A DNA stretch of 54,812 nt, from the NCBI GenBank assembly GCA_048938445.1, contig JBHLME010000011.1, positions 1-54,812 of the forward strand. Direction: 5' to 3'. This DNA comes from Promethearchaeota archaeon. Its GTDB lineage: Archaea > Asgardarchaeota > Lokiarchaeia > Sigyniarchaeales > SOKP01. Positions 6,681-24,841 of the stretch are shown in pieces; positions within the stretch are counted from its first letter, which is position 1; every line of letters begins with the position of its first letter. Below the pieces are notes generated by a model, which saw nothing but the letters and a program-made list of their open reading frames with translations, was not told the DNA's origin and did no database searches. The position numbers were made by a program, and so were the translations under genes.

Positions 6681-6938
6681 AATAATGATTAAAAATATTC
6701 TTTCTACTCATAAATGGGTAATTATAATCTCCAATTATATATTGGATTAAGTTATTAGGAGTGATATTTAAGGAGATATTGAAAGAATCATTGATTATAT
6801 TAATGAAATTCATTATTATTTCTTAGAATATATAATTTAATTCCATGAATTCCCTTATTTTCTGTTATTTTATCTACTCAATAATTTAAATAAATAAGGA
6901 TGATTATTTTTTTTTAATTAAAATTATCAGAAATTTCA

Positions 6939-7655
6939 ATGAAGAGAAATACTGAATTAGCAATATCGGAGCTTGCTAAAGGTAATCTTATATTAGTATA
7001 TGATATTGATGGTCGCGAAGAAGAAGTAGATTTAGTTTGCCTTGCTACTAAATGCACACCAAAACATGTATATCATTTAAGACACGATGCGGGAGGATTG
7101 ATATGCATAGCTATGCATCATAGAATAGCAAAAATACTTGGACTCCCATTTATGTCAGAAGTATATTCAAAATCTTTAGATAATTATGCAATTTTTAACC
7201 ACATCGCTCCTGATTGTAATGCACCTTATGGAGATAAACCCTCGTTCTCTATTACTATTAATCATATAAACACATACACGGGAATTACGGATAGAGATCG
7301 TTCATTAACCATTAGAGAATTTGGATTACTTGGTACTCAGATATTAATGAATAAACGAAGTAGCATTGATTTTCAAGAGGTTTTTGGAAAATATTTCCGA
7401 ACACCAGGACATACTCACTTATTAATTGCAAATCAAGACTTAATCAATGCAAGGCAAGGGCATACCGAATTAACGGTTACTTTAGCTTACTTGGGAGGTT
7501 TATCACCAATTACAGTTTTATGTGAAATGTTAGATAGTGAAACAGAGAGGGCTCTTTCAATAGAAAAGGCTAAAGAATTCTCTAAAAAAAACAACTTAGT
7601 AATGATTGAAGGAGTAGAAATTATAGAGGCTTATCAAGAAGTTATTAAAAATTAG
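6939..7655 (+). CDS. ribB: 3,4-dihydroxy-2-butanone 4-phosphate synthase, archaeal type
   Basis: YDIDGREEEVD, AGGLIC, FSITINH, TGITDRDR, FRTPGH, RQGHTE and CEMLD. Confidence 0.93.
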   Translation: MKRNTELAISELAKGNLILVYDIDGREEEVDLVCLATKCTPKHVYHLRHDAGGLICIAMHHRIAKILGLPFMSEVYSKSLDNYAIFNHIAPDCNAPYGDKPSFSITINHINTYTGITDRDRSLTIREFGLLGTQILMNKRSSIDFQEVFGKYFRTPGHTHLLIANQDLINARQGHTELTVTLAYLGGLSPITVLCEMLDSETERALSIEKAKEFSKKNNLVMIEGVEIIEAYQEVIKN

Positions 7656-7668
7656 GAAGTGTGTAAAA

Positions 7669-8142
7669 ATGAGTAAAAAAAATATAGGAATTGTTGATAC
7701 GACTTTTGCTCGCGTTGATATGGCAAAGATGGTAATACAAGAAATTGAAAATACTACAAGTAAGGTAAATTTAATAAGATATACAGTTCCAGGTATTAAG
7801 GACTTACCTGTTGCTTGCAAGATTTTATTTGATAATTATGAATGTGAAATGTGTATTGTACTTGGCATGCCTGGAGCTGCTGAAAAAGATAAAATTTGTG
7901 CACATGAAGCTAGTCAAGGTATAATCTCATGCCAATTAATAACTGGAAAACACATAATTGAATGTTTTGTTCATGAGGATGAGGGGGAAACTCCAGAAGA
8001 AGTAATTGAAATTTGCGATAATAGAGCTCGAAAACATGCTCAAAATGTATTAAGATTGTTATTCGACAATATTTGGCTCCAGAAGCATGCAGGATGTGGT
8101 TTAAGGCAAGGTTTTCCGGATGTGGGGCCTATCAAACAATAA
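7669..8142 (+). CDS. ribC: Archaeal riboflavin synthase (lumazine-synthase paralogue)
   Basis: GIVDTTFARVDM, TVPGIKDLPVACK, GMPG, HEAS, FVHEDE and GLRQG. Confidence 0.93.
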   Translation: MSKKNIGIVDTTFARVDMAKMVIQEIENTTSKVNLIRYTVPGIKDLPVACKILFDNYECEMCIVLGMPGAAEKDKICAHEASQGIISCQLITGKHIIECFVHEDEGETPEEVIEICDNRARKHAQNVLRLLFDNIWLQKHAGCGLRQGFPDVGPIKQ

Positions 8143-8145
8143 AAA

Positions 8146-8589
8146 GTGATAAACATGAATGAAAAAAAACACAATATAGGATTAGTCGTAGGAGAGTTTC
8201 ACTACGATATTACGGAAAACATGTTAAAAAAGGCAAAAGAACATGCAGAATTTCTGGGTTGTAATGTAACTGAAATTATAAAAGTTCCTGGAAGTTTTGA
8301 CATGCCGCTCGCTATAAAAACTTTATTGATTAAAGAAAAAATAGAAGGAGTTGTTTGTTTGGGTGCAGTTATAAAGGGAGATACTGATCATGATCAAATT
8401 GTAGCCCAACATGCAGCAAGAAAAATGGTGGACCTGTCGTTAGAGTTTAATAAACCTGTCGCTTTGGGAGTTTCAGGTCCAGGAATGACAAGAGTAGAAG
8501 CGGTTGAGAGAATTGAGGATTTTGCCCGCCGCTCTGTAGAAAGCGTAGTGAAAATGATAAGACGTTTAGAATTTTCAAGTAAGAATTGA
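8146..8589 (+). CDS. ribH: 6,7-dimethyl-8-ribityllumazine synthase
   Basis: [22 protein letters not shown] and [11 protein letters not shown]. Confidence 0.93.
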
Positions 8590-8601
8590 GGGATAAAATA
8601 T

Positions 8602-9357
8602 TTGATTCAAATCACATGCATTCAGATAGATAACTTTGGACCCTTCACGGAAAAAATGGGGGATAATAGGGAGCATAAGATTCAAATCCTTCTCTCAGAA
8701 TTATTTATATTTTTGCAAAAAGCTTTTAATCGTCAAAACGGTTTGGTATTTTTTGTTTCAAAAGATAACATGATCGCAGTATCCAATGGAATTTCAGTTG
8801 AAGATCATTACCTGATTATACAAGAAGTTGAAAAAAAATATCCTATCACAATAAGTATGGGAATAGGGATAGGAAAAACTCCAATTGAGGCTGAATATGA
8901 AGCATCAAGCCTTTTAATTTCAAAAGGAAGTGCACAATCTTCAAGGAAAAAAGTTCTTGCTCATAATGGACAAATAAATTCCAATAATCATAAATTAAAA
9001 ATAGCGCATGTTGACATAAACTTTTATACAAAAATCGCAACAGATGTATTCCCGTTATATTCAAATTTTTTTAATTTAAAAAGAGGACACATTACTCTAA
9101 TGGAAGCATTTAGGGAGATTGGAGCACTTTGCTTTTTTAATGGAGGTGATAATTTTATTTGTGTTTGTCCAAGTTCAGTAAAGAAAGAAGATATAAAACT
9201 TATAATTGAAGAGTTTGAAATTAAACATGTTCCTTGGACATTAAAAGCAGGTATAGGGTGTGGTCATAATATTTTAGAGGCAATTTCAAAGGCAAATTCA
9301 TGCTTAAGGAGTATTAGAGAAAATAATAATGTAAATAAAGTAATGCTTCTAAATTAA
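8602..9357 (+). CDS. arfA: GTP cyclohydrolase III (IIa)
   Basis: IQIDNFGPFT, RE..IQ, DNM, SAQ, IAHVDIN, FNGGDNF and LKAGIG. Confidence 0.85.
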   Translation: MIQITCIQIDNFGPFTEKMGDNREHKIQILLSELFIFLQKAFNRQNGLVFFVSKDNMIAVSNGISVEDHYLIIQEVEKKYPITISMGIGIGKTPIEAEYEASSLLISKGSAQSSRKKVLAHNGQINSNNHKLKIAHVDINFYTKIATDVFPLYSNFFNLKRGHITLMEAFREIGALCFFNGGDNFICVCPSSVKKEDIKLIIEEFEIKHVPWTLKAGIGCGHNILEAISKANSCLRSIRENNNVNKVMLLN

Positions 9358-9394
9358 ATATATTTGAGGAAATAATTTTATTTAAATCTATTTT

Positions 9395-10069
9395 ATGGTT
9401 AATCTTATTTTAATTCCTATTGGGAGTTTTGAACAACACGGACCTCACCTACCCCTAGATACAGATTACTTAATTGCATGTAGTTTAGTTAATAAAATGA
9501 AACTAATTTTTGGGGGGAAGGTGATCCAAGGTATAAAAATAGGAATCTCACCAGAACATTTTAGCTTCAGAAAAACTAAATCAATTTCAGAAGAAGTATT
9601 TATCACTCAAATTGAAGACATTTTAAGAAAATTTCATAAATATTCTAAATTAGTTTTTATTAACGCTCACGGAGGGAATGTTCGTGCATTAAATTCAATT
9701 CAAATTAAGCATAGAAAAAAAATTTTAGTTATTAATACATTTTCTATAATAAAAGAAGATTTATTAAGGTTTAGAACTTCAAAAATCGGTGGAATCTGTC
9801 ATGCAGGTGAATATGAAACGTCATTAATGCTATATTTATTTCCAAAAAAGGTAAAATTGAATCTTTTAAATGAAAAGTCTGTAAAATATGTACCTTCCTT
9901 AGATCCAAATTACATGAATGCTAAATTAAAGAATTGGAATGCAAATGATTATTCCGCTTCTGGAATTTTAGGAGATCCATACCACGCTACACCAGAAAAA
10001 GGAAGAAAATGGTTTATTTCTTTAATTAAAAATTCCAAAAATTTAATCGATAAATTTCTTTTACGGTAA
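9395..10069 (+). CDS. arfB: Creatininase-family amidohydrolase (FAPy deformylase-like)
   Basis: PIGSFEQHGPHLPLDTD, SPEH, NAHGGN, HAGEYETS and GILGDP; ArfB role inferred from position after arfA. Confidence 0.75.
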   Translation: MVNLILIPIGSFEQHGPHLPLDTDYLIACSLVNKMKLIFGGKVIQGIKIGISPEHFSFRKTKSISEEVFITQIEDILRKFHKYSKLVFINAHGGNVRALNSIQIKHRKKILVINTFSIIKEDLLRFRTSKIGGICHAGEYETSLMLYLFPKKVKLNLLNEKSVKYVPSLDPNYMNAKLKNWNANDYSASGILGDPYHATPEKGRKWFISLIKNSKNLIDKFLLR

Positions 10070-13711: not shown

Positions 13712-14362
13712 TTACTCTGGTAATTTTCTATGATGTAGCAACTTGAAAGCTATTCCGGGACCCATTCCTTGTGTATACGCAAGTTCAATCCAAAGCATTG
13801 CGAGTGGTTCAAGAAATCTAGCATTTTTAAGTGGTCCGCAGTCAACAACATCATATCCAATTATTTGTCCCAATTCCTTCACTAATGATTTAGCTTTAGA
13901 ATCATCTCCACATATGAAGGTGCTCGGTTTTGGACTTCTTGTTTTTACCTCATTTATGAATTCTGGATCAAAAGCATTAAATCCTTTTACTACGTTAGCA
14001 CCATTCGCCCATTCTGCGATCTTCTCTGCTGCAGAAGTAGTTAATCCAATTAATAAACCTCCTAATTTTGGAGCTACGGCATTAGTACAATCTATAATGA
14101 TCTTTCCATTAAGATCTCCTAAAATTCCAATAGTATCTTCAACAGACGACCATGGTATAGCAAGCAAGACAACTTCTCCAAATTGAGCTGCCTCGTTATA
14201 TGTTCCTCCTTGTATATTTAATCCCATTTTAGATACTAGTTTTGTGACACCTACGGGATCTCTTGATCCAAAAAATATATCTTGACCATTTTCAGCCCAA
14301 ATCTTTCCCAAACTAGTACCAACATTACCAGTACCAATTATCCCAATTTTCATTATCTTCAT
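13712..14362 (-). CDS. NADPH-dependent F420 reductase family oxidoreductase
   Basis: GIIGTGNVG, GSRDP, LAIPW, IDCTN, SAAE, VVKGFN, ICGDD and DCGPLKNARFLE. Confidence 0.82.
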   Translation of the reverse strand: MKIMKIGIIGTGNVGTSLGKIWAENGQDIFFGSRDPVGVTKLVSKMGLNIQGGTYNEAAQFGEVVLLAIPWSSVEDTIGILGDLNGKIIIDCTNAVAPKLGGLLIGLTTSAAEKIAEWANGANVVKGFNAFDPEFINEVKTRSPKPSTFICGDDSKAKSLVKELGQIIGYDVVDCGPLKNARFLEPLAMLWIELAYTQGMGPGIAFKLLHHRKLPE

Positions 14363-14451
14363 ACCTCTTTATTTAATAGATGTAGATCAAGTTCTAATTC
14401 AATCTTAAATAAAAAATAGGATTAAACTTTTATAAAAATATTACGCTTAAA

Positions 14452-16032
14452 TCATTCATCTTGAATATAAGGCTTCCCAGCAAACAAACAGAACTCTGCT
14501 TTCGATAATTCTCGACCTAGATAATTTACGTGCTGGAGGTTATCAGTAATCTTCATTTCAATTATTTTTTTACTCAAATTTTCAGCATTTTCTCCAATTA
14601 AAGTTTGAAGTAATTCGTGATTATTAGAGTAAAAAAGAACATAGATTTTTCTTGAATATTGGTCAACATGTATTTTAAAATATCCATTCTTATCAGGAAT
14701 ATAGTCCTTTTTATTGTTTTCTACGATGATTGCTTTATTTTTATTAATATTAGGTATTTCTATACCAATTTTCCCCTTTGCTTTAAATAATTGAATTCCT
14801 ACATTAATTGGGGGTGTTTTTTTATATTTAGAGACATAATTTATCTTCATGCATTCTTTAAGTTCTCGTACACCATTCATTAATTTAGTGCTATGTTCAA
14901 CAGTAAAAAGCAAACCCACATCCAATTCGATTGCAATACTAGCTAATAAACCATTAATTCCAACCGAATCAATGTCCATTAATTCTACAACATTTGAAAT
15001 TCCAAAAAAAAGTGGCAATTTTAACTTTTTCAATTCTTCAGAAGAGACCTTCTTCTTATACAAATAATAAGATTCTAAAGAGGGACAAATACCAGGTGAT
15101 ATTGGCGTTTCTAGTAATGGATCAGCAATTAATTTAGTAAAACCATGTTGCTTTAATTCTTTAGTTAAATTTAGTAAATTATCTACACGTTCTTTCGGAT
15201 CTTTAGGAAAATATCCATTTTTTATATTTGTTGGAAGGATAACTATTGGGATGGTTTTTGGTAATTGAAGTAATTCTTTATAATTACCTAAATCTAAACT
15301 AAGTATGAGATCAATATTTTCTTCTGTGGCAGTTTTAATTTCATTAATATCCATTGAATCAACACTAATTAGAATTTTAAAATTATCTCTTAGGAGTTTT
15401 ATAATTTCCCTTATACGTTCAGGATTTGGTTGATTGGAGATACAACCTACATCAATTATTTCTGCTCCAGAATTAATATAATGCTTAGCTTTTTTGAGAA
15501 TATCCGAATCGCTCTTTTTTGTACAATTAACGATTTCAGCAATAATTGGAGGAGGAAGACCGCCACCAATAATTATATTTGAAGTTTTTTCATTAATATA
15601 GAAAATATCATGTCCAATTTTTTTTTTTGCTAAGTTCAATTGATTTTTTATTAATTCTTCATAAAAAAATCTTCCTGAACTCTCAAATAATTTATTTGCA
15701 GCAACTTTATTAGACAGTCGAATTTCATCTATATTATTTATTATTAATGGGATATCAGATGCAAATTCAGGTCCTTTCTTTATTTGGATTGACAATGTAT
15801 CTTCCAAGTTTTTAGTATCCCATTGAACAAAACCCGGAATTAAAACTAAGTCATAATCGGTCAATAAAACAGAATCTAATAAGGTTTCAGTCATTTTTTC
15901 AGTAAGAAATGCGGAAACTGAGATTGGAGCAATTTGAATATCTATTGAGTGTTTTTTAATTGACTTGGTTACTTCTTTGACAATTGCATGACTATTTTGT
16001 CCTGTGATAATTAAAATATTAATCGAAACCAC
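14452..16032 (-). CDS. Archaeal dihydropteroate synthase-like protein (methanopterin-associated; C-terminal DUF4346-like domain)
   Basis: N-terminal IITG/LIPG/KGP domain; pterin-binding barrel (IIAEIV, GAEIIDVG, ISVDS, ADP, NVVELMDIDSVGIN); C-terminal DKNGYFKI...HVNYLGRELSKAE...YIQD. Confidence 0.82.
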   Translation of the reverse strand: MVSINILIITGQNSHAIVKEVTKSIKKHSIDIQIAPISVSAFLTEKMTETLLDSVLLTDYDLVLIPGFVQWDTKNLEDTLSIQIKKGPEFASDIPLIINNIDEIRLSNKVAANKLFESSGRFFYEELIKNQLNLAKKKIGHDIFYINEKTSNIIIGGGLPPPIIAEIVNCTKKSDSDILKKAKHYINSGAEIIDVGCISNQPNPERIREIIKLLRDNFKILISVDSMDINEIKTATEENIDLILSLDLGNYKELLQLPKTIPIVILPTNIKNGYFPKDPKERVDNLLNLTKELKQHGFTKLIADPLLETPISPGICPSLESYYLYKKKVSSEELKKLKLPLFFGISNVVELMDIDSVGINGLLASIAIELDVGLLFTVEHSTKLMNGVRELKECMKINYVSKYKKTPPINVGIQLFKAKGKIGIEIPNINKNKAIIVENNKKDYIPDKNGYFKIHVDQYSRKIYVLFYSNNHELLQTLIGENAENLSKKIIEMKITDNLQHVNYLGRELSKAEFCLFAGKPYIQDE

Positions 16033-17119
16033 TCATCAATCTTTCTTTTTCGAAAGGAATAAAAATATCATCTAAGATTGAACCTGATGCTTCTTTAAGC
16101 TTCAAGTTATCAATAATAGGAGCAAATTCCCCATTCAATAATCCATTAGCAATAAAAGCAGCACCTTGAGCAGCTCTTTTAGCAATTTGACTATATGATT
16201 TCATTAATCTGACTGGAGCTAAATCTTTAAGACCGAGCATTATTTTTTCTCTTAAATATGGTAGTTCTGATCCTCTTCCAGCTAATAAAATTTCTGTAAT
16301 TTTGTCCTTACTTGAAAATGAGGAAGAAATTGCATGGACTGCTTTTTTCACGCTTGATATATATGCTTGAAATGCTGTTTTAATTTGATCATCCTTTTCG
16401 GCTAAAAGCGTAATTTCTTTCAAACTTAGATTGGTAAATCCGGCAATATATGCCACTCCACCCTTGTAAATGTTCTTTTTTTCAATATTTTTAATTAAAT
16501 AAGCCAATTCTCCATCTAAACTCCCACAAGCTCTAAAACCCATTATATTTGAACCCCCAATTCCATCGATAATCTGTCCATTTTCAATAGCTAATACTGC
16601 TGTGAAACCATAACCAATTTCAATCATTATAAAATTAGTTTCTGTGGGTTCAATCTCAAAGCGTTCCATTTGATCTCTAATACCAACAACGGAAGTACAT
16701 AACTTATCCGCGGTACCCATATCAACTTTATTTATTTTTCGATATCTAGGAACTGTAGGTAAGTGTTTTACACCTGGAACAATCTTACCTGGTATAGCTT
16801 CAGATTTAATTAACTTTAGAATCTTGCCTAAACCTAAAAGTGGATCTTTCTCTTCCATGTTGAATTTAAGTAAAGTATAAAAAATGTCTTTTTCAGATAA
16901 ATCCTTAACATTTTTTAATGGGAGGCCAAATCCACTTGGAGCAACCATCATATCAACATTTTCTATTGATTTAATAATAGTTAAAGCTTTATTTGGATTA
17001 TTAATAAGTTCTTTAGACATTAAAGAAGTGTCTAATATGATTTTTTTTCCATCTTTTCCAAATTCTAATCCATAAAAATCCCATGATTTTGAACCTGGAT
17101 CAACACCTATTACACGCAT
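16019..17119 (-). CDS. DUF1464 family ASKHA (butyrate-kinase-like) protein
   Basis: GVDPGSKSWD, APSGFGLP, PGVKHLPTVP.YRKINKVDMGTADK and LDGELAY. Confidence 0.8.
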   Translation of the reverse strand: MRVIGVDPGSKSWDFYGLEFGKDGKKIILDTSLMSKELINNPNKALTIIKSIENVDMMVAPSGFGLPLKNVKDLSEKDIFYTLLKFNMEEKDPLLGLGKILKLIKSEAIPGKIVPGVKHLPTVPRYRKINKVDMGTADKLCTSVVGIRDQMERFEIEPTETNFIMIEIGYGFTAVLAIENGQIIDGIGGSNIMGFRACGSLDGELAYLIKNIEKKNIYKGGVAYIAGFTNLSLKEITLLAEKDDQIKTAFQAYISSVKKAVHAISSSFSSKDKITEILLAGRGSELPYLREKIMLGLKDLAPVRLMKSYSQIAKRAAQGAAFIANGLLNGEFAPIIDNLKLKEASGSILDDIFIPFEKERLMSGFD

Positions 17120-17250: not shown

Positions 17251-19773
17251 ATGAGTGATATAAACGGAAATATAAATTCTCAAAAAAACCCAAGGTTTGA
17301 ACTTGCTAAATCTCATGATCTCTCCCCAAGGCAAAAATGGTTGAGAGACTATTATTTTAAAGGAGTTGAAAGGGAATGGAACAATGAATATATGGCATTT
17401 ACAACAGGAATGGATTGGGATATAATTTGGTATGAAGGAGATTATTACATTGTTCCCGAGATCCATTATTATATTGGTAATAAGGATAGAGGTCCATTTG
17501 CTTCCTCCATAAGATCTATAGCTCAACCTATAATATTACCAGATGGTTTTTGGGAGCTATCACTTCCAGAACGTAGATCAGTTTTTTTCAAGGAGGTAAT
17601 GTTGAATTATATACCTCAAGAAATAATTCATAATGAGTTATTAGCAGGAGGGAGATTTAATACTCAATTGAGCAAATGCTTCAATAAAAAAGAAGCTAAA
17701 GATTTTTGGAAAAGGAATTTAATTAATCGAAGAAATACTTTTAATTTCCATAAAAATGGTTTTGGAAATGTAGGTGCTACAGCAGGTCATCTCATACCTG
17801 ATTATGAAACGATTATAAAAAAAGGATTCAAATTCATACATAATAAAATTGAAAAAAGTTATAAAAATTTAAGTGATAAAGAGAAAAAAGGATCTAAAGG
17901 TCAAGAACTCCGTGCAATGCTTGTTTCTGTGGAAATTCCTAAGTTATTAGCAAAAAAATATGCTGAGGAATGTAGAAGGCTTAAAAAGGGCACATCAGAT
18001 CCAAAAAGGATTGAAGAATTAGAACAAATGGCGAGAAACTTAGAAAAAGTTCCTTGGGAACCTTCTGAAACATTTTGGCAAGGAGTCCACGCTTTATGGA
18101 TAACACACATGTTAGTAATAGCCGAAGAATCATATCCCGGTCCCGGAGTCTCATTTGGAAGAACTGATCAATATTTATGGGATCTATATAGAAAAGATGT
18201 AATTATTGAAAAAAAAATTACAAAAGAATTTGCAAAAGATATTTTAGGATGCTTTTGGTTCCATTGTAATACCGTATATGATGCACAGATCAGGGTAGGT
18301 GGAAATCAAGGAATAACCGCGGGTTTTGGACAATTAATGACATTATCAGGCTGTGGACCTAATGGTGAAGATTTGACTAATGAATTAACTTATACAATAC
18401 TTGAAGTAATAGATGAATGGCATCCTATCTTAGAACCAAAACCCAATATTAGACTACACAGAAATTCCCCAGATAAATTATTAAATAAAATCATTAAAAT
18501 GATCACTCGGTCTCAAGGTGCTCCTTTCTTATTAAACTTTGATGAGAGAAGCATAGCAGGAATGGTTAGAGAAGGAATCCTAAAAGAGGATGCGTGGAAC
18601 TATGCGTGTGTTGGATGTTTAGAAAACACGATGCAAGGTAATGATCGATCAGGTACGGTAAATTGCAATCCCAATCTCGCGAAAACAATAGAATTAACTC
18701 TTTGGAACGGCAAAAACATGCCTAGTAATGTTTTTAAAGGGAACGTGGCAAGTAAGGCACCTTCAAAACCAGGGGCACAGTTATCTCCTAAAACGGGAAA
18801 TCCAGAAAATTTTGAAACATGGCAGGAGTTTTATGCAGCTTGGCAAGAACAAGCAAGATACTTGATAAAACACACTGTAGATGTATATAATCCTACTGAA
18901 TCATTAAGAGCACAATATTTACCTACTCCATATATTTCAACTATTGTCCGTGGATGTGTTGAAAAGGGATTAGATATTCGAAATGGGGGACCAGAATTAC
19001 GGTTTATAACTATAGAAGGTGTTGGATTTGGAACTACAGTAGATTCATTGTATACTATAAAAAAATTAATATATGAGGATAAAAAATATACCATCTCTAA
19101 AATAAAGGAAGCTTTAAATGCTGATTTCCAAGGTAAAACAAATGAAATAATACAGGTTTACTTAAAGAATAAAGTCTTAAAATATGGAAATGATGATGAT
19201 GATGTAAATAATCTTGCAAGAGACGTGATGAAAACTTGGGCAGATGAGTGTTGGAATTATAAAACATCTACAGACTTTCAATTTAGGGGTGGAATGTTAT
19301 CATGGAATTATTGGGCGGGTGCTGATGCTAAATATACCATAGCTACTCCTGATGGAAGAAATAAAGGAACTTTTCTTTCAAATGCTATTTGTCCTAGTGC
19401 AGGGAGTGATAAGAAAGGACCTACTGCTGTTACAAACTCTGTTGGAATTGCTTTAGGTGGTAAATCATATGATGGAGAATACATAAATTGCTTACCAAAT
19501 GGTGCAAGTCATACAATAACCTTTAATCCTAGTTTATTAAGAAATCCTGAACATATAGAAAAATTCAAGTCATTTTTAAGAGGATATGTAGAAAATGGAG
19601 GTACTGCGTTACAAATTAATATTTTAGATGCTGAAATGCTAAGAGATGCTCAAAAACACCCTCAAAACTATCAAAATCTTTTGGTTAGGGTAACTGGATA
19701 TAATGCCTATTTCAATTCAATTGGAAGAGAATTACAAGATGAGATCATTGCAAGAGAATCTCATAGCATGTAA
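17251..19773 (+). CDS. Glycyl radical enzyme (PFL superfamily, non-PFL eliminase-like)
   Basis: C-terminal glycyl loop LLVRVTGYNAYF; Cys loop ACVGCLE; SFGRTDQYL, KYGNDD and ATPDGR. Confidence 0.92.
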   Translation: MSDINGNINSQKNPRFELAKSHDLSPRQKWLRDYYFKGVEREWNNEYMAFTTGMDWDIIWYEGDYYIVPEIHYYIGNKDRGPFASSIRSIAQPIILPDGFWELSLPERRSVFFKEVMLNYIPQEIIHNELLAGGRFNTQLSKCFNKKEAKDFWKRNLINRRNTFNFHKNGFGNVGATAGHLIPDYETIIKKGFKFIHNKIEKSYKNLSDKEKKGSKGQELRAMLVSVEIPKLLAKKYAEECRRLKKGTSDPKRIEELEQMARNLEKVPWEPSETFWQGVHALWITHMLVIAEESYPGPGVSFGRTDQYLWDLYRKDVIIEKKITKEFAKDILGCFWFHCNTVYDAQIRVGGNQGITAGFGQLMTLSGCGPNGEDLTNELTYTILEVIDEWHPILEPKPNIRLHRNSPDKLLNKIIKMITRSQGAPFLLNFDERSIAGMVREGILKEDAWNYACVGCLENTMQGNDRSGTVNCNPNLAKTIELTLWNGKNMPSNVFKGNVASKAPSKPGAQLSPKTGNPENFETWQEFYAAWQEQARYLIKHTVDVYNPTESLRAQYLPTPYISTIVRGCVEKGLDIRNGGPELRFITIEGVGFGTTVDSLYTIKKLIYEDKKYTISKIKEALNADFQGKTNEIIQVYLKNKVLKYGNDDDDVNNLARDVMKTWADECWNYKTSTDFQFRGGMLSWNYWAGADAKYTIATPDGRNKGTFLSNAICPSAGSDKKGPTAVTNSVGIALGGKSYDGEYINCLPNGASHTITFNPSLLRNPEHIEKFKSFLRGYVENGGTALQINILDAEMLRDAQKHPQNYQNLLVRVTGYNAYFNSIGRELQDEIIARESHSM

Positions 19774-19811
19774 CTCCTTTTTTATATCTGTTATAGTACA
19801 TGGTGTAAAGA

Positions 19812-20810
19812 GTGGAAGAAAATAACGCTTGTATTTTTGAAGTCTTACGCATGTCAACAGAAGATGGACCAGGAATCAGAACTACTGTATTTTTCCAGCA
19901 ATGTCCTTTAACGTGTAAGTGGTGCCATAATCCAGAAAGTATAAGTAATAAACCTCAACTTCAATGGTTTAAACATAAATGCATTGGATGTAAAACTTGT
20001 ATTGAAACTTGTCAAAATGAAGTTTTATCTCTTGACAAAAATGGCCTTCAAATTGATAGAGAAAAATGTAAAAGCTGTGGACAATGTGCTGAAGAATGTC
20101 CTTCTACGGCATTAGTTATTACGGCGAAATGGTGGAATTTAAATGACCTATTTCATGAGATTTTAAAGGATAAAGTATACTACACAAATTCTAAAGGAGG
20201 TATTACCGTTTCTGGTGGAGAGCCTACTTTACATCCTCATTTTCTATTGAGGTTTCTAAGGATGTGTAAAGAGAATGGAATCTCAACAGCATTAGATACA
20301 TGTGGAATTGCATCTCAAAAAATATATGAGAAATTAATTCCATATATTGACTTATTCTTATTAGATATTAAAGAGATTGACTCCCAAAAACACAAAATAT
20401 GGACGGGAGTTTCAAATGAAAAAATATTAGATAATGCCGTATGGCTTTCAAATAAATTAAATGAAAATAATAAGAACATATGGATTCGAACACCAATTAT
20501 CCCAAAATTCACAGCTACTGAAGAAAATATTAAAGGTATAGGTGATTTCATTGTCCAAAAGTTAAATAATTTCCCTGAACGATGGGATCTTCTTGCATTC
20601 AACAATCTATGTAGTGCTAAATACGAACGACTAGGCATAGAATGGATTTTAAAAGATGAAACCTTATTATCTAAAAAAACAATGGATAATCTTTGTCAAA
20701 TTGCAAAAACCACTGGAGCTAAGAATGTAAGATGGTCAGGATTGACAAAAAATGAAAATACTGAAGATTCTATTAAGAAAGATAATAAATCAAAATTACC
20801 TTCTTGTTAA
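19812..20810 (+). CDS. Glycyl-radical activating enzyme with 2x[4Fe-4S] ferredoxin insert
   Basis: DGPGIRTTVF, CPLTCKWCHNPES, CIGCKTCIETC, CKSCGQCAEECP and GGITVSGGEP. Confidence 0.93.
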   Translation: MEENNACIFEVLRMSTEDGPGIRTTVFFQQCPLTCKWCHNPESISNKPQLQWFKHKCIGCKTCIETCQNEVLSLDKNGLQIDREKCKSCGQCAEECPSTALVITAKWWNLNDLFHEILKDKVYYTNSKGGITVSGGEPTLHPHFLLRFLRMCKENGISTALDTCGIASQKIYEKLIPYIDLFLLDIKEIDSQKHKIWTGVSNEKILDNAVWLSNKLNENNKNIWIRTPIIPKFTATEENIKGIGDFIVQKLNNFPERWDLLAFNNLCSAKYERLGIEWILKDETLLSKKTMDNLCQIAKTTGAKNVRWSGLTKNENTEDSIKKDNKSKLPSC

Positions 20811-20865
20811 AAAAATAATATATATATAAAACGATTATAAAAAACTATAATTACTGTGATAACTC

Positions 20866-21753
20866 ATGAAAAATAAAAAAAAAAATTTTACTTGGTCTTC
20901 AGAATTAACCGAGGAAGCCATTGAATTTACTGCTACTGAATTAAAATTAGCACTCTTAGCTACGATTGACCATAGAGGATGGCCTCATTTAACCCTAATT
21001 ACCTATAACCGTGCAAAAACTAATAATCAAATTGTTTGGGGTCAATTCACAGAAGGTTTAAGTAAGAAATACGTAATCGAAAACCCTAAACAAGGTATTT
21101 TATACATGAACATTTCAATGCCATTTAAATTCCTCCAAATAAAATCAGATTTTAGTCATATTGAATCTGAGGGAGAAGACCTAGATTATTTCAATAAATT
21201 AGAATTGATGCGATATATGACCTATGTTAGGATTTATAAAGCATATTATGAAAAGGTTATAGCCGCCACTTCCTTGAGGGCATTACCAATTTTAAGTATT
21301 GCTAAAGGAATCATTAAAAATATAATAGGAAAAGGAGGTATGAAAACAGGTTTTGAAGAAAAACGCTTGGACGTGATTGGTTATAAAATATTTAAAGGTC
21401 CTATAAATCCTAAATTCATCTCATATATTGATCCATCTGATGGATATCCAGTAATTCTACCTTGTTTACAACTTCAAGCAGTAGATCATAATAGGTTAAT
21501 TTTTCCTTTAGGCTCTGCATTAAGAGATGATTTAAAAAAAATCCCTCAAAATAGTAATATTGCTGTTTACGGGGCAAATTTTGATCTAGCTAATCAAATG
21601 ATAAATGGAATTTTTACTGGTTTTAAAAAATCAAGGGGTATAACTTTTGGAATAATTGAAATTAAAGAAGTATATAATAGTAGTCCTCCTTTACCGGGAG
21701 TAATCTATCCTGAGAGACGAGTTCGTCCTAAAGTTACAAATTTTTCCCTATAA
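20866..21753 (+). CDS. Tandem pyridoxamine 5'-phosphate oxidase-like (split beta-barrel, FMN/F420-binding) protein
   Basis: Two repeats of the barrel start: ALLATIDHRGWPH and KFISYIDPSDGYP. Confidence 0.65.
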   Translation: MKNKKKNFTWSSELTEEAIEFTATELKLALLATIDHRGWPHLTLITYNRAKTNNQIVWGQFTEGLSKKYVIENPKQGILYMNISMPFKFLQIKSDFSHIESEGEDLDYFNKLELMRYMTYVRIYKAYYEKVIAATSLRALPILSIAKGIIKNIIGKGGMKTGFEEKRLDVIGYKIFKGPINPKFISYIDPSDGYPVILPCLQLQAVDHNRLIFPLGSALRDDLKKIPQNSNIAVYGANFDLANQMINGIFTGFKKSRGITFGIIEIKEVYNSSPPLPGVIYPERRVRPKVTNFSL

Positions 21754-21786: not shown

Positions 21787-22596
21787 ATGGATAAAAAAAA
21801 TGAATGGTTTGAAATTATTGAACTCAATGATCATCTAATTGTCATACGTGAAAAATTATCTGAAGTTGATCCTAGATTTCTAACAGAATATACAAACATG
21901 TTCCTACTACTTGGTTCACACTCAGCGCTTTTAATTGATACGGGATGTGGTATTTTTCCAATTAAACCTACTATTGATTCATTGATAGGTGATAAGAAAT
22001 TAATTGTTATCAATACTCATGCTCATTGGGATCATGTTGGAGGGAATCATGAATTTGATGAAGTTTACATTCATGAGGATGAGGCAAACTTGGTTGCTAA
22101 ACCTGTTAACCTTTCATTATTAAAAGAATCTTCGAAAGAAATTGTAAATAGATTTAATAGCTGCTCTTTTACTATACCTCCCGCTCTTGAAATTAAAACA
22201 CTTAAAGAAGGAGATTATTTCGATCTAGGAGGTCTTACAATTACAATCATTCACACTCCAGGCCATTCTATTGGTTCAATTTCTTTACTTACCGATAAAA
22301 GAGAACTTTTTACAGTAGATACAGCACATATTTGAGCTGTTTTTTTACCAAAAAAGAAAAAACTCCCAACTTTTCTTTCAAGTCTTATAAAATTAATAAA
22401 AACCCAAGATAATAACAATTCATTGGTTATATATCCCTCTCATGAACAATTTCAAGCAGATTTAAGCCTTTTAGTAAATCTAAATGAGGGCATATCTAAT
22501 ATTGAACAATCATGGGATAAAAAAAAAAAAAATGACTTTCTTCATTCATGGATTATTGATGGAGGCAAGTTCCAGTTAGTTATATCAAAGTTCTAA
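21787..22596 (+). pseudogene. Metallo-beta-lactamase-fold hydrolase interrupted by an in-frame TGA at 22333-22335
   Basis: THAHWDHVGG and HTPGHS precede the TGA. The frame stays open for 86 more codons to TAA 22594-22596 and includes IYPSHE, the last metal-ligand His. Confidence 0.7.
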
Positions 22597-22640: not shown

Positions 22641-23408
22641 TTGAAGACTAATTTTAAAAATGAAAAAATATTCAATTTTAAATTAAGTAGTATGATGTTA
22701 ATGAACTTCAAACCTCAAGAATTTGGATTAAAAAAGAATAATTTGTACGAAATATTAGCTACTACTTTCTCAAAAAACGGAAATATTAATCCAAATACTT
22801 CTTGTATGGGCATTAGATTAATTGAAAATAACCTCATTCAAATAAGCCCTTATTCCAATACCAAAACATTTAAAAATTTAGAAGCTACAGGTATAATTAC
22901 TCTAAATTTTGTAGATAATATAAGTCTTTATGCATTAGCTGCTTTAAAATGTCCAAAAGCTTCAATACAATTTCCAAAAAAATATTATAACTATACAGAA
23001 ATTGACAATCCTTTTAATGAAAATGCTTTTTCATCTACGATTCTTATTCCATATGTGAATAAAGCATGGGGTATATTAACATGTATCATTGCTTCTGAAA
23101 CTCAGATTATTAAAGAAGATCTATTTGGAGAGTCAGAAATTACAGAATTTAAATTGCATGTAATCGCAGCTCAAAAATTCAAAGAATCTTATAAATTATT
23201 TAATAGAGCAGAAAATTTAGCACTAGAATCAATAATATTAGCAACCCGGTTAAAAATTGCGAAAGAAAATAATGATTTATCCTTGATAAACTCAATTTAT
23301 TCAAAAATTACCGATAATTTAGACAATATTCGTAGATTTGGTAAAAACCAAAATGCTATAGAAGTAGTTGATTTAATTTTAAAATATATTAAGTTTTTAA
23401 TAGATTGA
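22641..23408 (+). CDS. DUF447 family protein (FMN-binding split-barrel-like, H4MPT-linked)
   Basis: YEILATT, N..MGI, TKTFKNL and FNRAENLALESIILATR; the true start may be an ATG near 22692. Confidence 0.72.
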   Translation: MKTNFKNEKIFNFKLSSMMLMNFKPQEFGLKKNNLYEILATTFSKNGNINPNTSCMGIRLIENNLIQISPYSNTKTFKNLEATGIITLNFVDNISLYALAALKCPKASIQFPKKYYNYTEIDNPFNENAFSSTILIPYVNKAWGILTCIIASETQIIKEDLFGESEITEFKLHVIAAQKFKESYKLFNRAENLALESIILATRLKIAKENNDLSLINSIYSKITDNLDNIRRFGKNQNAIEVVDLILKYIKFLID

Positions 23409-23449
23409 ATTATATTAGATGAGTTAATTTCATTTATAGTAATTAAAAT

Positions 23450-23830
23450 TTATTCAATTTTTTCAATATACATCAAGGGATAATCCATATCTTCAATCCA
23501 ATCAATTTTAGCATTAATTTTAATATCTTCATAAACAACTATTAATTCTGCCCTAATAGTTTTTCCTGATATTTCATCATAATCATAGGGGGTAATCTTA
23601 TCACCTTTGATTTTTGTTCTATCTAAATTTATTCTTACAGACTCTACGTAAGGTTGGCAGGAGATTGATTTTTCAATCCCTCTTTCTATAGCAGTTATAA
23701 CATTATCTTCTGATGAGATAGGAATACCACAGAGAATATGGTATAATGCTCCCAACTTAATGCCAGTTTCAAAACAAGCTCTTTCTCTTAGACTTAAACT
23801 TGGTGAAAAATAAATATTTTCTTTAGACAT
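23450..23830 (-). CDS. mptD: Archaeal dihydroneopterin aldolase
   Basis: RERACFETGIKLGALYH, IEKSISCQPYV and YPLMYI. Confidence 0.85.
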   Translation of the reverse strand: MSKENIYFSPSLSLRERACFETGIKLGALYHILCGIPISSEDNVITAIERGIEKSISCQPYVESVRINLDRTKIKGDKITPYDYDEISGKTIRAELIVVYEDIKINAKIDWIEDMDYPLMYIEKIE

Positions 23831-24841
23831 TCAATCACATTCAAATATTTCTATTTTTGCTCCAGAATTGTTCGGCTTGCTTAAGTATACATGTTCTCCA
23901 TCTGGTTTAAGGAATTCTCGAACTTCTTCTTTCAATTTTTCTGCTTCTATATCAGATTCAGTTATTCCTACAACACTTGGACCAAAAGAGGACATGGCAT
24001 AAGCTTTCACGCCATAATTATCTAAGAAATTAAGTAATCCCTTGACAGTATTATGTTGAAGATTAATTTCAATCTTTTTAAAACCAATACTTTGAATTCT
24101 TTTCAATCCATCGCCAAAGGACTCAAGATCATTTTTTAAAATTCCAGGAATTACTTTCATCAATACTTGATGGGATACTTCATTTACCTCTTCTCTAGGG
24201 ATTGGAGCAAATTTTTGAAAGATATTAACTTCTTCATCACCATAAGCACCTTTTTTCACATTAGGGATTATTATCACAAACCGCCAATTTTCAGGTATGG
24301 GATATCTAAAAATAGTTAAGGCAGGATCAACGAAAGGACAAGCGCTAGATGGGAGAAATGTTTCTTTTTCTTTTCCCATTCCAAATTCATGTCCAGCATC
24401 TAATATAAATCCTCCAGTTTCAAAACCTCTCCATCCAATTCCAGAAGTTCCTCCTCTTTCAACTAACTTTGTTAGTTCTTGAGTAGTAATATCTATGTTT
24501 TTTAATTTAGTTATTGCAGTGGCAATTGCCAAGCTTAGTTGTGTTTTAGAACCCAAACCCACATGACTTGGATAGTATTTCTCAAGATTAAAGTGAAAAT
24601 TCTTATTATTTATGTTAAATTCTTTAAAAATTTTGGAAGCCTTTTCATTAATAACTTCTATAGACTCTCGATAATAATGGTCGCATTCTATTTGAAATTC
24701 ATCAGCAGAATTAGATGCTTCAAAAACTACATTAGGTTGATCCAACATGAGACCAATCCCTCCATCTACCCTTCCCGTATATCCATTTTCATCGATTAAG
24801 GATAAATGAATTCTACAAGGCGTTGTAATTTTTACGCGCAT
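23831..24841 (-). CDS. mptG: Beta-ribofuranosylaminobenzene 5'-phosphate synthase (GHMP family)
   Basis: TPCRIHLSLID, GRVDGGIG, HVGLGSKTQL, RGGTSGIG, GGFILDAGH, GFKKIE and MSSFGP. Confidence 0.9.
   Translation of the reverse strand: MRVKITTPCRIHLSLIDENGYTGRVDGGIGLMLDQPNVVFEASNSADEFQIECDHYYRESIEVINEKASKIFKEFNINNKNFHFNLEKYYPSHVGLGSKTQLSLAIATAITKLKNIDITTQELTKLVERGGTSGIGWRGFETGGFILDAGHEFGMGKEKETFLPSSACPFVDPALTIFRYPIPENWRFVIIIPNVKKGAYGDEEVNIFQKFAPIPREEVNEVSHQVLMKVIPGILKNDLESFGDGLKRIQSIGFKKIEINLQHNTVKGLLNFLDNYGVKAYAMSSFGPSVVGITESDIEAEKLKEEVREFLKPDGEHVYLSKPNNSGAKIEIFECD

What the first reader, a model, noticed from the sequence alone, without database searches (positions are those of the whole stretch)
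17251..21753. Uncharacterised glycyl-radical enzyme system: GRE + ferredoxin-type activase + tandem flavin/F420 split-barrel protein
Seen: an 840-aa GRE with Cys loop ACVGCLE and glycyl loop RVTGY. It has an unusual aromatic-rich N-terminus (WLRDYYF...WNNEY...WDIIWYEGDYYIVPE) and is followed by its activase and a double PNPOx-like barrel. Established: PFL has adjacent Cys-Cys, whereas a GCxE loop marks eliminases such as glycerol/propanediol dehydratase, CutC, HypD and IslA. I do not recognise this N-terminus or this partner gene from any of those. Inference: a new anaerobic C-O, C-N or C-S lyase/dehydratase whose product is handled by an FMN- or F420-dependent partner, in an organism that makes F0 nearby. 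This is the strongest candidate for an undescribed biochemical system in the window.
Basis: partly seen in the sequence, partly recalled or inferred. Interest (0 to 1): 0.78.

Follow-up and report, generated by a model that had tools for sequence, protein, structure and literature searches.

The report
Uncharacterised glycyl-radical enzyme with barrel partner
This is a real three-gene system for an oxygen-sensitive radical enzyme of unknown substrate, shared by Asgard archaea and many anaerobic bacteria, whose conserved third protein probably clamps onto the enzyme itself, and it is not the pyruvate formate-lyase that databases call it.

Summary
Window 17251-21753 encodes an 840-aa glycyl radical enzyme (GRE; Cys loop ACVGCLE, Gly loop RVTGY), a three-cluster activase and a 295-aa double beta-barrel protein.

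The GRE scores below every curated family cut-off and sits about equally far from all solved GREs. It belongs to a discrete clade marked by a family-specific N-terminus.

That clade is not confined to this organism. At least 666 loci in reference genomes carry it, forming an Asgard clade and a bacterial sister clade.

The barrel gene is a conserved neighbour. It lies within 2.5 kb in 24 of 25 bacterial and 25 of 41 Asgard loci.

A complex prediction places the barrel on the GRE's family-specific N-terminal region. Median ipSAE was 0.73 against a best control of 0.00, but only 2 of 3 runs passed and a truncated GRE was used.

My reading is a CxE-type 1,2-eliminase or isomerase, probably a dehydratase, with a new kind of accessory subunit. 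The substrate is unknown.

The F420 link is not supported. The tetrahydromethanopterin-gene neighbourhood occurs only in a subset of Asgard loci and in 0 of 28 bacterial loci. I found no description of the family in print.

The parts
17251..19773 (+). Glycyl radical enzyme, 840 aa (P0001), catalytic subunit of an uncharacterised CxE-type clade
17338..17631 (+). Family-specific N-terminal region (residues 30-127; LSPRxKWLRDYYFKGxxREWNNE...YYIVPE), the predicted docking surface for the barrel protein
   Evidence: Conserved in the Asgard and bacterial clades. Predicted interface residues are 30-92 and 121-127. Confidently folded in the model.
17782..17802 (+). AGHLIPD loop with His180, aligned to glycerol dehydratase His164 and the corresponding His of HypD
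   Evidence: The role of His164 is taken from section 5.6.1 of the review PMC13450708.
18124..18162 (+). EESYPGPGVSFGR loop, family-specific; replaces the His281/Ser282 loop of glycerol dehydratase and the Asp-bearing loop of HypD
   Evidence: positions mapped by hand from the printed alignments
18604..18624 (+). Cys loop ACVGCLE (Cys456, Glu458), followed by the near-invariant NTMxGNDRSGTV
19291..19320 (+). GMLSWNYWAG strand, family-specific; aligned to the active-site strand that carries Tyr640 in glycerol dehydratase and the sulfonate-binding Arg in IseG
   Evidence: hand mapping
19687..19701 (+). Glycyl radical loop RVTGY (Gly816)
19812..20810 (+). GRE activating enzyme (radical SAM, CxxxCxxC at residues 31-38, two ferredoxin-type clusters at 57-67 and 86-96)
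20866..21753 (+). 295-aa double beta-barrel protein (N-half PNPOx-like split barrel), family-specific partner and predicted accessory subunit
21787..22596 (+). Metallo-beta-lactamase-fold gene in the same apparent operon, interrupted by an in-frame TGA at 22333-22335. Found next to the triad in only 2 of 51 Asgard loci, so probably not a core part.
22641..23408 (+). DUF447 protein, co-directional and directly downstream. Follows the barrel gene in 10 of 51 Asgard loci and in no bacterial locus.

Best explanation
The three genes encode a conserved, still uncharacterised glycyl radical enzyme system. Shown: the large protein has every catalytic hallmark of the 1,2-eliminase/isomerase branch of GREs. 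These are the glycyl loop, a single catalytic Cys followed by Glu (C-x-E), and the His that in glycerol dehydratase protonates the leaving hydroxyl. It has its own three-cluster radical-SAM activase. Inferred mechanism: the activase installs a radical on Gly816, which passes to Cys456. The thiyl radical abstracts H from a hydroxyl-bearing carbon of the substrate. Glu458 deprotonates that hydroxyl and a beta leaving group departs. Because His180 is kept, the leaving group is most likely oxygen-linked, either water or a ring or ether oxygen. The product is a carbonyl compound. The pocket-lining positions that are bulky or polar in glycerol dehydratase are small here (Pro298, Gly299, Gly360, Val470). 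The family has its own invariant Asp465-Arg466 and a Ser-Trp-Asn-Tyr-Trp strand. The substrate is therefore probably larger than glycerol and polar or anionic, for example a sugar derivative or hydroxy acid. The 295-aa double-barrel protein is most likely an accessory subunit that docks, through its C-terminal tail and second barrel, onto the family-specific N-terminal region of the GRE. It may carry a flavin. It is neither a pyruvate formate-lyase nor an alkyl/benzylsuccinate synthase. The substrate is not known.
For: Class: Pfam PFL-like and Gly_radical both match, with motifs at residues 452-458 and 813-817. C456, E458, H180 and G816 are at least 90% conserved across 48 family sequences. 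All characterised eliminases and isomerases keep the CXE motif, and GD His164 protonates the leaving OH (review PMC13450708, sections 5.6-5.7 read). His180 aligns with GD His164 and the HypD His.
Distinct clade: the score is below every NCBIfam cut-off. In the 50%-identity library, relatives that match from residue ~20 score 941 to 473 bits. There is then a gap to about 344 bits for generic GREs that match only from residue ~175. Foldseek gives TM 0.73-0.78 to all solved eliminases and isomerases alike, at 21-27% identity.
Conserved triad: the barrel lies within 2.5 kb of the GRE in 24 of 25 bacterial and 25 of 41 Asgard loci that have at least 2.5 kb downstream. The activase does so in 22 of 25 and 22 of 41. 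In 5 loci (3 Asgard, 2 bacterial) the barrel stays within 2.5 kb while the activase does not.
Binding: GRE residues 1-700 plus the barrel gave ipSAE 0.01, 0.73 and 0.74 (median 0.73), with a best of 3 controls at 0.00. The partner's pLDDT was at least 81, and the stated run agreement was at least 0%. The mark was reached by 116 of 157 solved complexes and 2 of 215 mismatched pairs. The interface is GRE 30-92, 121-127, 135 and 345-349 against barrel 63, 114-121, 169-172, 238-244, 271-280 and 284-295. The docking site therefore falls on the family-specific N-terminus, not at the cut end.
Pocket differences: GD His281, Ser282, Tyr339 and Asp447 align to Pro298, Gly299, Gly360 and Val470 (hand mapping). 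The family-wide loops are shown.
Regulation: a GntR/FCD regulator lies directly upstream in 16 of 26 bacterial loci with at least 1 kb upstream.
Against: No biochemical datum exists, and the substrate is a guess.
The binding prediction used a truncated GRE (1-700, because of the size limit) and my own alignments. One of three runs scored 0.01, and the tool's stated run agreement is 'at least 0%'.
The predicted interface residues are not more conserved than the rest: GRE 0.56 against 0.70, within residues 20-175 0.55 against 0.65, and barrel 0.53 against 0.53.
In 12 of 41 Asgard loci neither the barrel nor, in most, the activase lies within the 10-kb flank.
Flavin binding by the barrel is untested. 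Pfam PNPOx_N is below its cut-off, and the profile match to HupZ is only E = 0.0012.
The active-site mapping was done by hand from pairwise sequence alignments. The identities of contact residues other than those named in the review are recalled, not computed from coordinates.
Gene neighbourhoods beyond the triad are heterogeneous and point to no single pathway.
Confidence: 0.6

Rival explanations
1. One reading: the barrel protein is a free FMN- or F420-dependent enzyme that reduces, oxidises or isomerises the carbonyl product of the GRE, without forming a stable complex.
For: The N-half is a PNPOx-like split barrel. Its closest solved folds include FMN-binding proteins and F420 reductases. 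A Gly-x-Ser-Lys motif (G64, S66, K67) is invariant or nearly so; that such a motif binds phosphate in this fold is my recollection. In many GRE pathways a dedicated downstream enzyme is encoded beside the GRE (general knowledge). The predicted interface is not enriched in conserved residues.
Against: The complex prediction passes with controls at 0.00 and lands on the GRE's family-specific region. The barrel stays adjacent to the GRE when the activase is displaced (5 loci). For F420 specifically, the same protein family occurs in bacterial loci with no CofG/CofH nearby (0 of 28). That those phyla generally lack F420 is recalled, not tested.
Confidence: 0.22
2. In Lokiarchaeia the system works in tetrahydromethanopterin (H4MPT) biosynthesis. 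One possibility is radical opening of the furanose ring ether of the C-riboside made by beta-RFA-P synthase (as YbiW and PflD open 1,5-anhydrohexitol-6-phosphates), followed by reduction of the keto product by a split-barrel protein to give the aryl-deoxyribitol moiety. Another is supply of the aromatic precursor.
For: In the window the operon GRE-activase-barrel-(MBL)-DUF447 lies between DHPS-like/DUF1464 genes and archaeal dihydroneopterin aldolase plus beta-RFA-P synthase (NF040726, 352.9 bits against a cut-off of 328). Among 51 Asgard loci, DUF1464 is present in 17, DHPS-like in 16, CofG and CofH in 15 each, DUF447 in 10, and the aldolase and RFA-P synthase in 9 each. DUF447 directly follows the barrel on the same strand. 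The ring-ether-cleaving GRE precedent comes from the review, section 5.7.
Against: None of 28 bacterial loci has any of these genes, yet the bacterial clade keeps all active-site loops identical or nearly so. Many Asgard loci place the triad in unrelated contexts such as Cdc6/XerC/thioredoxin-reductase-like, sulfatase, GPH transporter and thiolase. Rubrerythrin or sulfatase genes are inserted between the GRE and the H4MPT genes in several loci, which suggests inherited synteny. Methanogens make H4MPT without such a GRE (recalled). That this pathway step is still unassigned is also recalled; my search and the passages read did not settle it.
Confidence: 0.08
3. It is what the databases and Asgard metabolic models call it: a pyruvate or 2-oxoacid formate-lyase that yields formate and acyl-CoA.
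For: Source names on relatives are 'pyruvate formate lyase family protein' or 'formate C-acetyltransferase'. Imachi et al. 2020 (PMC7015854, passages and S-Tables 3-4 seen) assign 'Pyruvate--formate lyase' to DSAG12_02704, a GRE gene flanked by an activase and hypothetical proteins. I could not verify that this gene belongs to the family.
Against: The adjacent Cys-Cys pair of PFL is absent; the sequence is Gly455-Cys456 followed by Glu458. TIGR01255 scores 83.8 bits against a cut-off of 994.2, and only over residues 629-838. PFL structures match only the C-terminal part, at 62 bits.
Confidence: 0.03
4. It is an alkyl- or benzylsuccinate synthase, as proposed for single-Cys GREs of Hermodarchaeota (Zhang et al. 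2021, PMC8163825, passages seen).
For: That paper argues from a single conserved Cys with Gly in place of the first Cys, and from 29-33% identity to AssA and BssA. Relatives of this GRE occur in Hermodarchaeota MAGs. Whether they are the same genes was not checked.
Against: Sequence matches to solved X-succinate synthases are weaker (TutD 144 bits, MasD 190 bits) than to eliminases and isomerases (232-319 bits). Foldseek TM is 0.71-0.74 against 0.73-0.78. The CXE Glu and the dehydratase His are kept. No HiPIP- or rubredoxin-like small-subunit gene is among the conserved neighbours in the clustering of ORFs of at least 70 aa; shorter ORFs were not examined. The review says small subunits are known for HPAD, BSS and MASS (section 4.2).
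Confidence: 0.02
5. The barrel protein is a dedicated flavin electron donor for the activase, playing the part flavodoxin plays for E. coli PFL activase, rather than a partner of the GRE.
For: The fold resembles a flavin-binding one. The review notes flavodoxin as the in-vivo reductant of PFL-AE (section 2.2 passage). The gene order is GRE-activase-barrel.
Against: The barrel remains next to the GRE in the 5 loci where the activase is not within 2.5 kb. The GRE-barrel pair passes the complex test. The activase-barrel pair was not tested because only one job was allowed.
Confidence: 0.05

Closest known systems
B12-independent glycerol dehydratase (Clostridium butyricum, PDB 1R8W) and 1,2-propanediol dehydratase (5I2G, 9RCO)
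   Same: These are the best sequence match (318.6 bits, E 6.7e-94, residues 178-840) and the best fold matches (TM 0.76-0.78). They share the Gly loop, the C-x-E Cys loop and the His equivalent to His164, as well as a three-cluster activase of the TIGR02494 type.
   Different: Identity is only 24-25% in the fold alignment. The first ~175 residues are unrelated in sequence. The GD substrate contacts His281, Ser282, Tyr339 and Asp447 are replaced by Pro, Gly, Gly and Val (hand mapping). No barrel partner is known for those enzymes.
[quoted passage not shown]
   Same: Second-best match (290.6 bits; NF043068 gives 374.7 bits). It shares the His, Cys and Glu triad.
   Different: The score is far below the equivalog cut-off of 1100. 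The position of the HypD Asp-bearing loop is occupied by the family's YPGPG loop.
GRE isomerases YbiW and PflD (1,5-anhydrohexitol-6-phosphate ring opening; PDB 8ID7, 8ID0)
   Same: They share CXE chemistry on a sugar-sized, anionic substrate (review section 5.7), and the fold is comparable (TM 0.75-0.78). This is the best analogy for a substrate larger than glycerol.
   Different: Sequence scores are only 253 bits, the N-terminus is not shared, and there is no barrel partner.
Multi-subunit GREs: HPAD (gamma), benzylsuccinate synthase (beta, gamma), MASS (beta, gamma, delta)
   Same: These are the precedent for small accessory subunits that bind the catalytic subunit and are needed for solubility or radical control (review section 4.2).
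   Different: Their subunits are HiPIP-like or rubredoxin-like iron proteins. Here the partner is a 295-aa double beta-barrel without Cys clusters, and the catalytic subunit is of the eliminase type, for which the review lists no small subunit.
PNPOx-like split-barrel proteins (HupZ 5ESC, Desulfovibrio FMN-binding protein, mycobacterial F420 reductases)
   Same: One half of the partner superposes on them (TM 0.63-0.74 normalised to the target, probability 1.0). The profile match to HupZ is weak (E = 0.0012).
   Different: Identity is 11-17%. Those proteins are single barrels that dimerise, whereas this is one chain with two unlike halves. Cofactor binding is untested.

Membership tests
Glycyl radical enzyme superfamily | C-terminal glycyl radical domain with an RVxG[FWY] loop | tested here: met
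   PF01228 scores 84.5 bits against 22.2. RVTGY lies at residues 813-817. G816 is at least 90% conserved in 48 sequences.
Glycyl radical enzyme superfamily | PFL-like ten-stranded barrel with a catalytic Cys loop | tested here: met
   PF02901 scores 399.9 bits. The model has pLDDT 89.2 and TM 0.73-0.78 to solved GREs. Cys456 is present.
Glycyl radical enzyme superfamily | Cognate radical-SAM activase | tested here: met
   The adjacent gene passes TIGR02494 (315.6 against 174.35).
Glycyl radical enzyme superfamily | Glycyl radical formation (EPR) | not testable with these tools
   This needs anaerobic activation in vitro.
GRE 1,2-eliminases / isomerases | C-x-E motif on the Cys loop | tested here: met
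   C456-L-E458 is near-invariant in the family. The motif is defined in the review.
GRE 1,2-eliminases / isomerases | His equivalent to GD His164 (dehydratase subtype) | tested here: met
   His180 aligns to it in the GD, HypD and PD alignments.
GRE 1,2-eliminases / isomerases | Elimination or isomerisation activity on a hydroxylated substrate | not testable with these tools
   The substrate is unknown.
TIGR01774 PFL2/glycerol dehydratase subfamily and its equivalogs (HypD, HpsG, HpfG, CutC, IAD, HPAD) | Score at or above the curated cut-off | tested here: not met
   Scores against cut-offs: TIGR01774 408.5 vs 678.2; HypD 374.7 vs 1100; HpsG 366.4 vs 1000; HpfG 343.7 vs 1000; CutC 319.5 vs 1050; IAD 266.9 vs 1100; HPAD 191.7 vs 1150.
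Pyruvate formate-lyase (formate C-acetyltransferase) | Adjacent Cys-Cys in the Cys loop | tested here: not met
   The sequence is V-G-C-L-E, with Gly455 before Cys456.
Pyruvate formate-lyase (formate C-acetyltransferase) | Equivalog score | tested here: not met
   TIGR01255 scores 83.8 against 994.2, and NF007437 scores 286.3 against 1109.
X-succinate synthases (Bss/Ass/Mas) | Closest similarity to XSS alpha subunits | tested here: not met
   TutD scores 144 bits and MasD 190 bits, against 232-319 bits for eliminases and isomerases. Foldseek TM is lower as well.
X-succinate synthases (Bss/Ass/Mas) | HiPIP- or rubredoxin-like small-subunit genes beside the alpha gene | tested here: inconclusive
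   None appears among the conserved neighbour clusters. Only ORFs of at least 70 aa were clustered, so small ORFs were not examined.
PNPOx-like FMN-binding split barrel (PF01243 clan) | Profile match at or above the gathering score | tested here: not met
   26.0 bits against 28.1, N-terminal half only.
PNPOx-like FMN-binding split barrel (PF01243 clan) | Split-barrel fold | tested here: met
   The model has pLDDT 91.1. Foldseek gives probability 1.0 and TM 0.63-0.74 (target-normalised) to HupZ, FMN-binding protein and F420 reductases, for one half.
PNPOx-like FMN-binding split barrel (PF01243 clan) | Binds FMN, F420 or haem | not testable with these tools

The most novel reading that the evidence does not exclude
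The double-barrel protein is a flavin-bearing subunit built into the enzyme. That would make this the first redox-coupled GRE of the eliminase type: a radical dehydratase whose product radical or product is reduced, or whose glycyl radical is gated, by an on-board flavin. It would be a heteromeric architecture unlike any known GRE and would be conserved from Asgard archaea to bacteria. In Lokiarchaeia it may have been recruited to make the aryl-deoxyribitol part of methanopterin.
Probability: 0.15. Interest if true: 0.85.

Novelty: new variant of a known kind. Interest (0 to 1): 0.68.

Why it matters
GREs carry out chemistry that anaerobes cannot achieve otherwise, and each newly assigned clade has revealed a new pathway (review PMC13450708; abstract and sections 4.2, 5.6, 5.7 read, plus passages from sections 2.2, 4.4, 6 and 7).

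That review says whole clades, archaeal ones above all, remain without a function (section 7 passage). This clade is one of them.

It is highly conserved, at about 70% identity across Loki-, Thor-, Hermod-, Hod-, Heimdall-, Odin- and Hel-archaeota titles. It is also shared with a bacterial sister clade.

It is routinely labelled pyruvate formate-lyase. If Asgard metabolic models that invoke formate-yielding 2-oxoacid lyases rest on this gene, they need re-examination (link unverified).

The predicted barrel subunit would be a new type of GRE accessory protein. It would also explain two family-specific features at once: the odd N-terminus and the odd neighbour. That gives experimenters a concrete instruction, which is to co-express the two.

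The GntR/FCD regulator in bacteria offers a cheap route to the substrate.

Tried and rejected
1. Cluster look-up to see whether the cultured Promethearchaeum MK-D1 protein belongs to the family. The tool answered that its database is switched off. A homology search with the Promethearchaeum sp. MAG copy (L047) then listed 120 relatives, none named as MK-D1. The link stays unverified.

2. Literature.
- 'glycyl radical' + Asgard: 13 papers, none on this family as such.
- 'glycyl radical' + methanopterin: 3 irrelevant papers.
- 'glycyl radical enzyme' with pyridoxamine/shikimate/quinate/split barrel/PNPOx: no listed paper held the GRE term.
- 'glycyl radical enzyme', 2022 onward: 465 papers, 40 titles seen, none on it.
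- Subscription journals and the supplements of Zhang et al. 2021 were not seen.

3. Survey of bacterial flanks: 73 neighbouring ORFs, chosen from 95 nearest ones, were scanned. No common pathway emerged beyond the GntR regulator. Isolated hints were 2-hydroxyacid dehydrogenase, MFS transporters, chemoreceptors and sugar genes.

4. Asgard neighbour clusters: sulfatase occurs in 10 and a GPH-type transporter in 8 of 51 loci. This is suggestive, but I rejected it as a basis for naming a substrate.

5. Conservation of the predicted interface: not enriched, so it cannot be used as support.

6. Internal-duplication test of the barrel: no similarity between the halves.

7. Sequence search of the barrel against the PDB: nothing with the single sequence, and HupZ at E = 0.0012 with a profile.

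8. Rfam and tRNA scans of the window: nothing.

9. Size limit: the full-length GRE plus barrel exceeds the limit of the complex tool, so only residues 1-700 were used. The activase-barrel and barrel-flavin pairs were not run.

Full report
**What is there.**
The window is about 30% G+C. It carries archaeal lipid genes (PcrB, UbiA, geranylgeranyl reductase). It also carries archaeal cofactor genes: GTP cyclohydrolase III, CofG/CofH, archaeal dihydroneopterin aldolase and beta-RFA-P synthase.

At the stated coordinates lie three co-directional genes separated by 38 and 55 bases:
- a GRE of 840 aa (17251-19773);
- an activase of 332 aa (19812-20810);
- a 295-aa protein (20866-21753).

Two more genes follow on the same strand. 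One is a metallo-beta-lactamase-fold gene (21787-22596, broken by an in-frame TGA). The other is a DUF447 gene (22641-23408).

**The GRE.**
Pfam finds PFL-like (residues 176-685) and Gly_radical domains. Every NCBIfam model scores far below its cut-off, including the broad PFL2-3 subfamily (408.5 against 678.2).

Against all PDB sequences the best match is B12-independent glycerol dehydratase (318.6 bits). HypD, propanediol dehydratase, IseG, CutC, HpsG, YbiW, PflD and HplG follow at 205-291 bits, each from residue ~175 onward. X-succinate synthases score 144-190 bits. PFL scores 62 bits over the C-terminus only.

An AlphaFold model (pLDDT 89.2, pTM 0.90) superposes about equally on all solved eliminases and isomerases (TM 0.73-0.78, 21-27% identity). 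It fits slightly worse on X-succinate synthases (0.71-0.74).

The June 2026 review by Imrich et al. (PMC13450708) lists the characterised eliminases and isomerases. I read its abstract and sections 4.2, 5.6 and 5.7, plus passages from sections 2.2, 4.4, 6 and 7. All of them have structures among these hits, so this protein is none of them.

In the pairwise alignments Cys456 and Glu458 match the CXE motif. His180 matches glycerol dehydratase His164 and the HypD His. By hand mapping, GD His281, Ser282, Tyr339 and Asp447 fall on Pro298, Gly299, Gly360 and Val470. The strand that carries Tyr640 in GD and the sulfonate-binding Arg in IseG reads GMLSWNYWAG here. The identities of the GD contact residues other than Cys433, Glu435 and His164 are recalled from memory.

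**A discrete, widespread clade.**
A search of 5.8 billion proteins listed 120 relatives of 825-842 aa at 69-100% identity. Where named, they come from Asgard MAGs and are called 'pyruvate formate lyase family protein', 'formate C-acetyltransferase' or, once, hydroxyproline dehydratase.

In the 50%-identity library, relatives that match from residue ~20 score 941, 711, 620, 618, 504 and 473 bits. The next full-length proteins are generic GREs at about 344 bits that match only from residue ~175.

Of the best 80, 51 are of archaeal type (61-85% identity) and 29 carry bacterial titles. The bacterial titles include Treponema, Leptospirales, other Spirochaetota, Oscillospiraceae, Christensenella, Clostridia, Anaerolineaceae, Syntrophaceae, Desulfococcaceae and Caldisericota. 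They show 50-58% identity over the whole length, N-terminus included.

A FastTree of 90 sequences puts 51 archaeal-type rows in one clade (support 100) and the bacterial rows in its sister clade (support 100; 32 rows including four library representatives). Two deeper representatives lie outside both. FastTree support is local only, and several long branches were flagged.

The loops LSPRxxWLRDYYFxGxxRxWNNE, (D/E)E(S/N)YPGPGxSFGR, VGCLENTMxGNDRSGTV, GMLSWNYW and LLVRxTGYNAY are shared by both clades.

**The partner.**
The 295-aa protein has 353 relatives at E <= 0.001. The 120 listed are 283-301 aa long and are nearly all called hypothetical. Bacterial copies are 24-38% identical to the window's.

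Its model (pLDDT 91.1) has two beta-rich halves. One half matches split-barrel proteins such as HupZ, the Desulfovibrio FMN-binding protein and F420 reductases. The halves are not similar in sequence.

The table below counts loci that have at least 2.5 kb downstream of the GRE.

| Group | Barrel within 2.5 kb | Activase within 2.5 kb | Barrel anywhere in flank | Activase anywhere in flank |
|---|---|---|---|---|
| Bacterial (25 loci) | 24 | 22 | 25 | 24 |
| Archaeal-type (41 loci) | 25 | 22 | 29 | 30 |

In five loci the barrel is within 2.5 kb while the activase is not.

**Does the partner bind the GRE?**
Because of the 1000-residue limit I sent GRE residues 1-700 (alignment A1) with the whole barrel (alignment A2). 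The verdict was that the model supports binding but does not show it:
- ipSAE per run was 0.01, 0.73 and 0.74, median 0.73;
- the best of three controls was 0.00;
- the partner's pLDDT was at least 81;
- the stated agreement between runs was at least 0%;
- the mark was reached by 116 of 157 solved complexes and 2 of 215 mismatched pairs.

The interface in the best run joins GRE residues 30-92, 121-127, 135 and 345-349 with barrel residues 63, 114-121, 169-172, 238-244, 271-280 and 284-295. The family-specific neighbour is thus placed on the family-specific N-terminal region, away from the artificial cut.

Against this reading: one run failed, my own alignments were used, and the interface positions are not more conserved than the rest (GRE 0.56 against 0.70; barrel 0.53 against 0.53).

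According to the review, small subunits are known only for HPAD, BSS and MASS, and all are iron proteins. A barrel subunit on an eliminase-type GRE would be new.

**Context.**
In bacteria a GntR/FCD regulator lies directly upstream in 16 of 26 loci with at least 1 kb upstream. The remaining flanks are heterogeneous.

In Asgard loci there are several arrangements.
- The window's type places the triad between DHPS-like/DUF1464 genes and DUF447/aldolase/RFA-P synthase, with CofG/CofH further upstream.
- A second type has Cdc6, XerC-like and thioredoxin-reductase-like genes upstream.
- Other arrangements occur as well.

Counts among the 51 Asgard loci are: DUF1464 17, DHPS-like 16, CofG and CofH 15 each, DUF447 10, aldolase 9, RFA-P synthase 9. 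Among the 28 bacterial loci every one of these counts is 0.

A sulfatase occurs in 10 Asgard and 2 bacterial loci, and a GPH-type transporter in 8 and 3. Both recur at either end of the triad.

I read the methanopterin neighbourhood as probably inherited synteny with perhaps a local functional tie, and I keep it as a rival. The F0/F420 inference is not supported as a general property of the system.

**Earlier readings in print.**
Zhang et al. 2021 (PMC8163825; passages seen) called single-Cys GREs of Hermodarchaeota alkyl/benzylsuccinate synthases. Their basis was 29-33% identity and the Gly-Cys loop. I did not check whether those are the same genes, but the argument would apply equally to any eliminase.

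Imachi et al. 2020 (PMC7015854; passages and S-Tables 3 and 4 seen) state that MK-D1 degrades 2-oxoacids through 2-oxoacid-formate lyases. They assign 'Pyruvate--formate lyase' to DSAG12_02704. That gene is flanked by an activase and hypothetical genes, as this family would be. I could not obtain that sequence, so the link is unverified.

Members of this family lack the Cys-Cys pair of PFL. A formate-lyase role for them is therefore very unlikely.

**Verdict.**
The system is an uncharacterised, widely distributed eliminase-type GRE with a conserved, probably bound, double-barrel partner. It is a new variant of a known kind. The substrate remains unknown, and the binding and the flavin are predictions.

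Noticed in passing
window 21787-22596 (stop at 22333-22335): The metallo-beta-lactamase-fold gene after the barrel gene has an in-frame TGA where the 269-aa homologue in L001 has Gly. Similarity (66% identity) continues beyond it. This is a recent nonsense change or a sequencing error.
   Followed up: yes
window 3783-10069, 13712-17119, 22641-24841: A large cofactor block. It holds riboflavin and F0 genes (RibD_C, CofG, CofH, DHBP synthase, two lumazine-synthase-like genes, GTP cyclohydrolase III). It also holds methanopterin-type genes: a DHPS-like protein passing TIGR00284, DUF1464, DUF447, archaeal dihydroneopterin aldolase, and beta-RFA-P synthase passing NF040726.
   Followed up: partly
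library proteins P0246, P0249, P0250: Distant representatives share the family's N-terminal motif but have lost the catalytic Cys and/or the glycyl loop. They may be inactive paralogues.
   Followed up: no
L002 (DATKTW010000103.1): The record is titled Nanopelagicaceae bacterium. Its GRE sits inside the Asgard clade next to L004, and the contig carries Cdc6 and the same neighbours as Asgard loci. The contig is probably mis-binned.
   Followed up: partly
L004 and L035 (both from assembly CAZDTP01): One MAG carries two copies of the family in different contexts, which points to paralogy within Asgard genomes.
   Followed up: no
L053:14400-17500 (minus strand): A second, shorter GRE (742 aa) with its own small activase lies tail-to-tail right after the triad in a Clostridia MAG.
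   Followed up: no
L011, L030, L033-L037, L056: two ORFs upstream of the GRE (e.g. L056:3451-4107 and L035:14829-15302): Two proteins of 218 and 157 aa, with no Pfam or NCBIfam match, recur just upstream of the GRE in 8 Asgard loci. They stay near it even after rearrangement in L035.
   Followed up: partly
window 52101-53384: A B12-binding radical SAM protein (class B type) lies 30 kb from the finding. Its role is unknown.
   Followed up: no
window 42025-43452 and 49024-50553: Two N6-DNA-methylase genes, one of the Eco57I/TaqI type, lie among PadR/HAAS regulator pairs. They may be restriction-modification elements.
   Followed up: no
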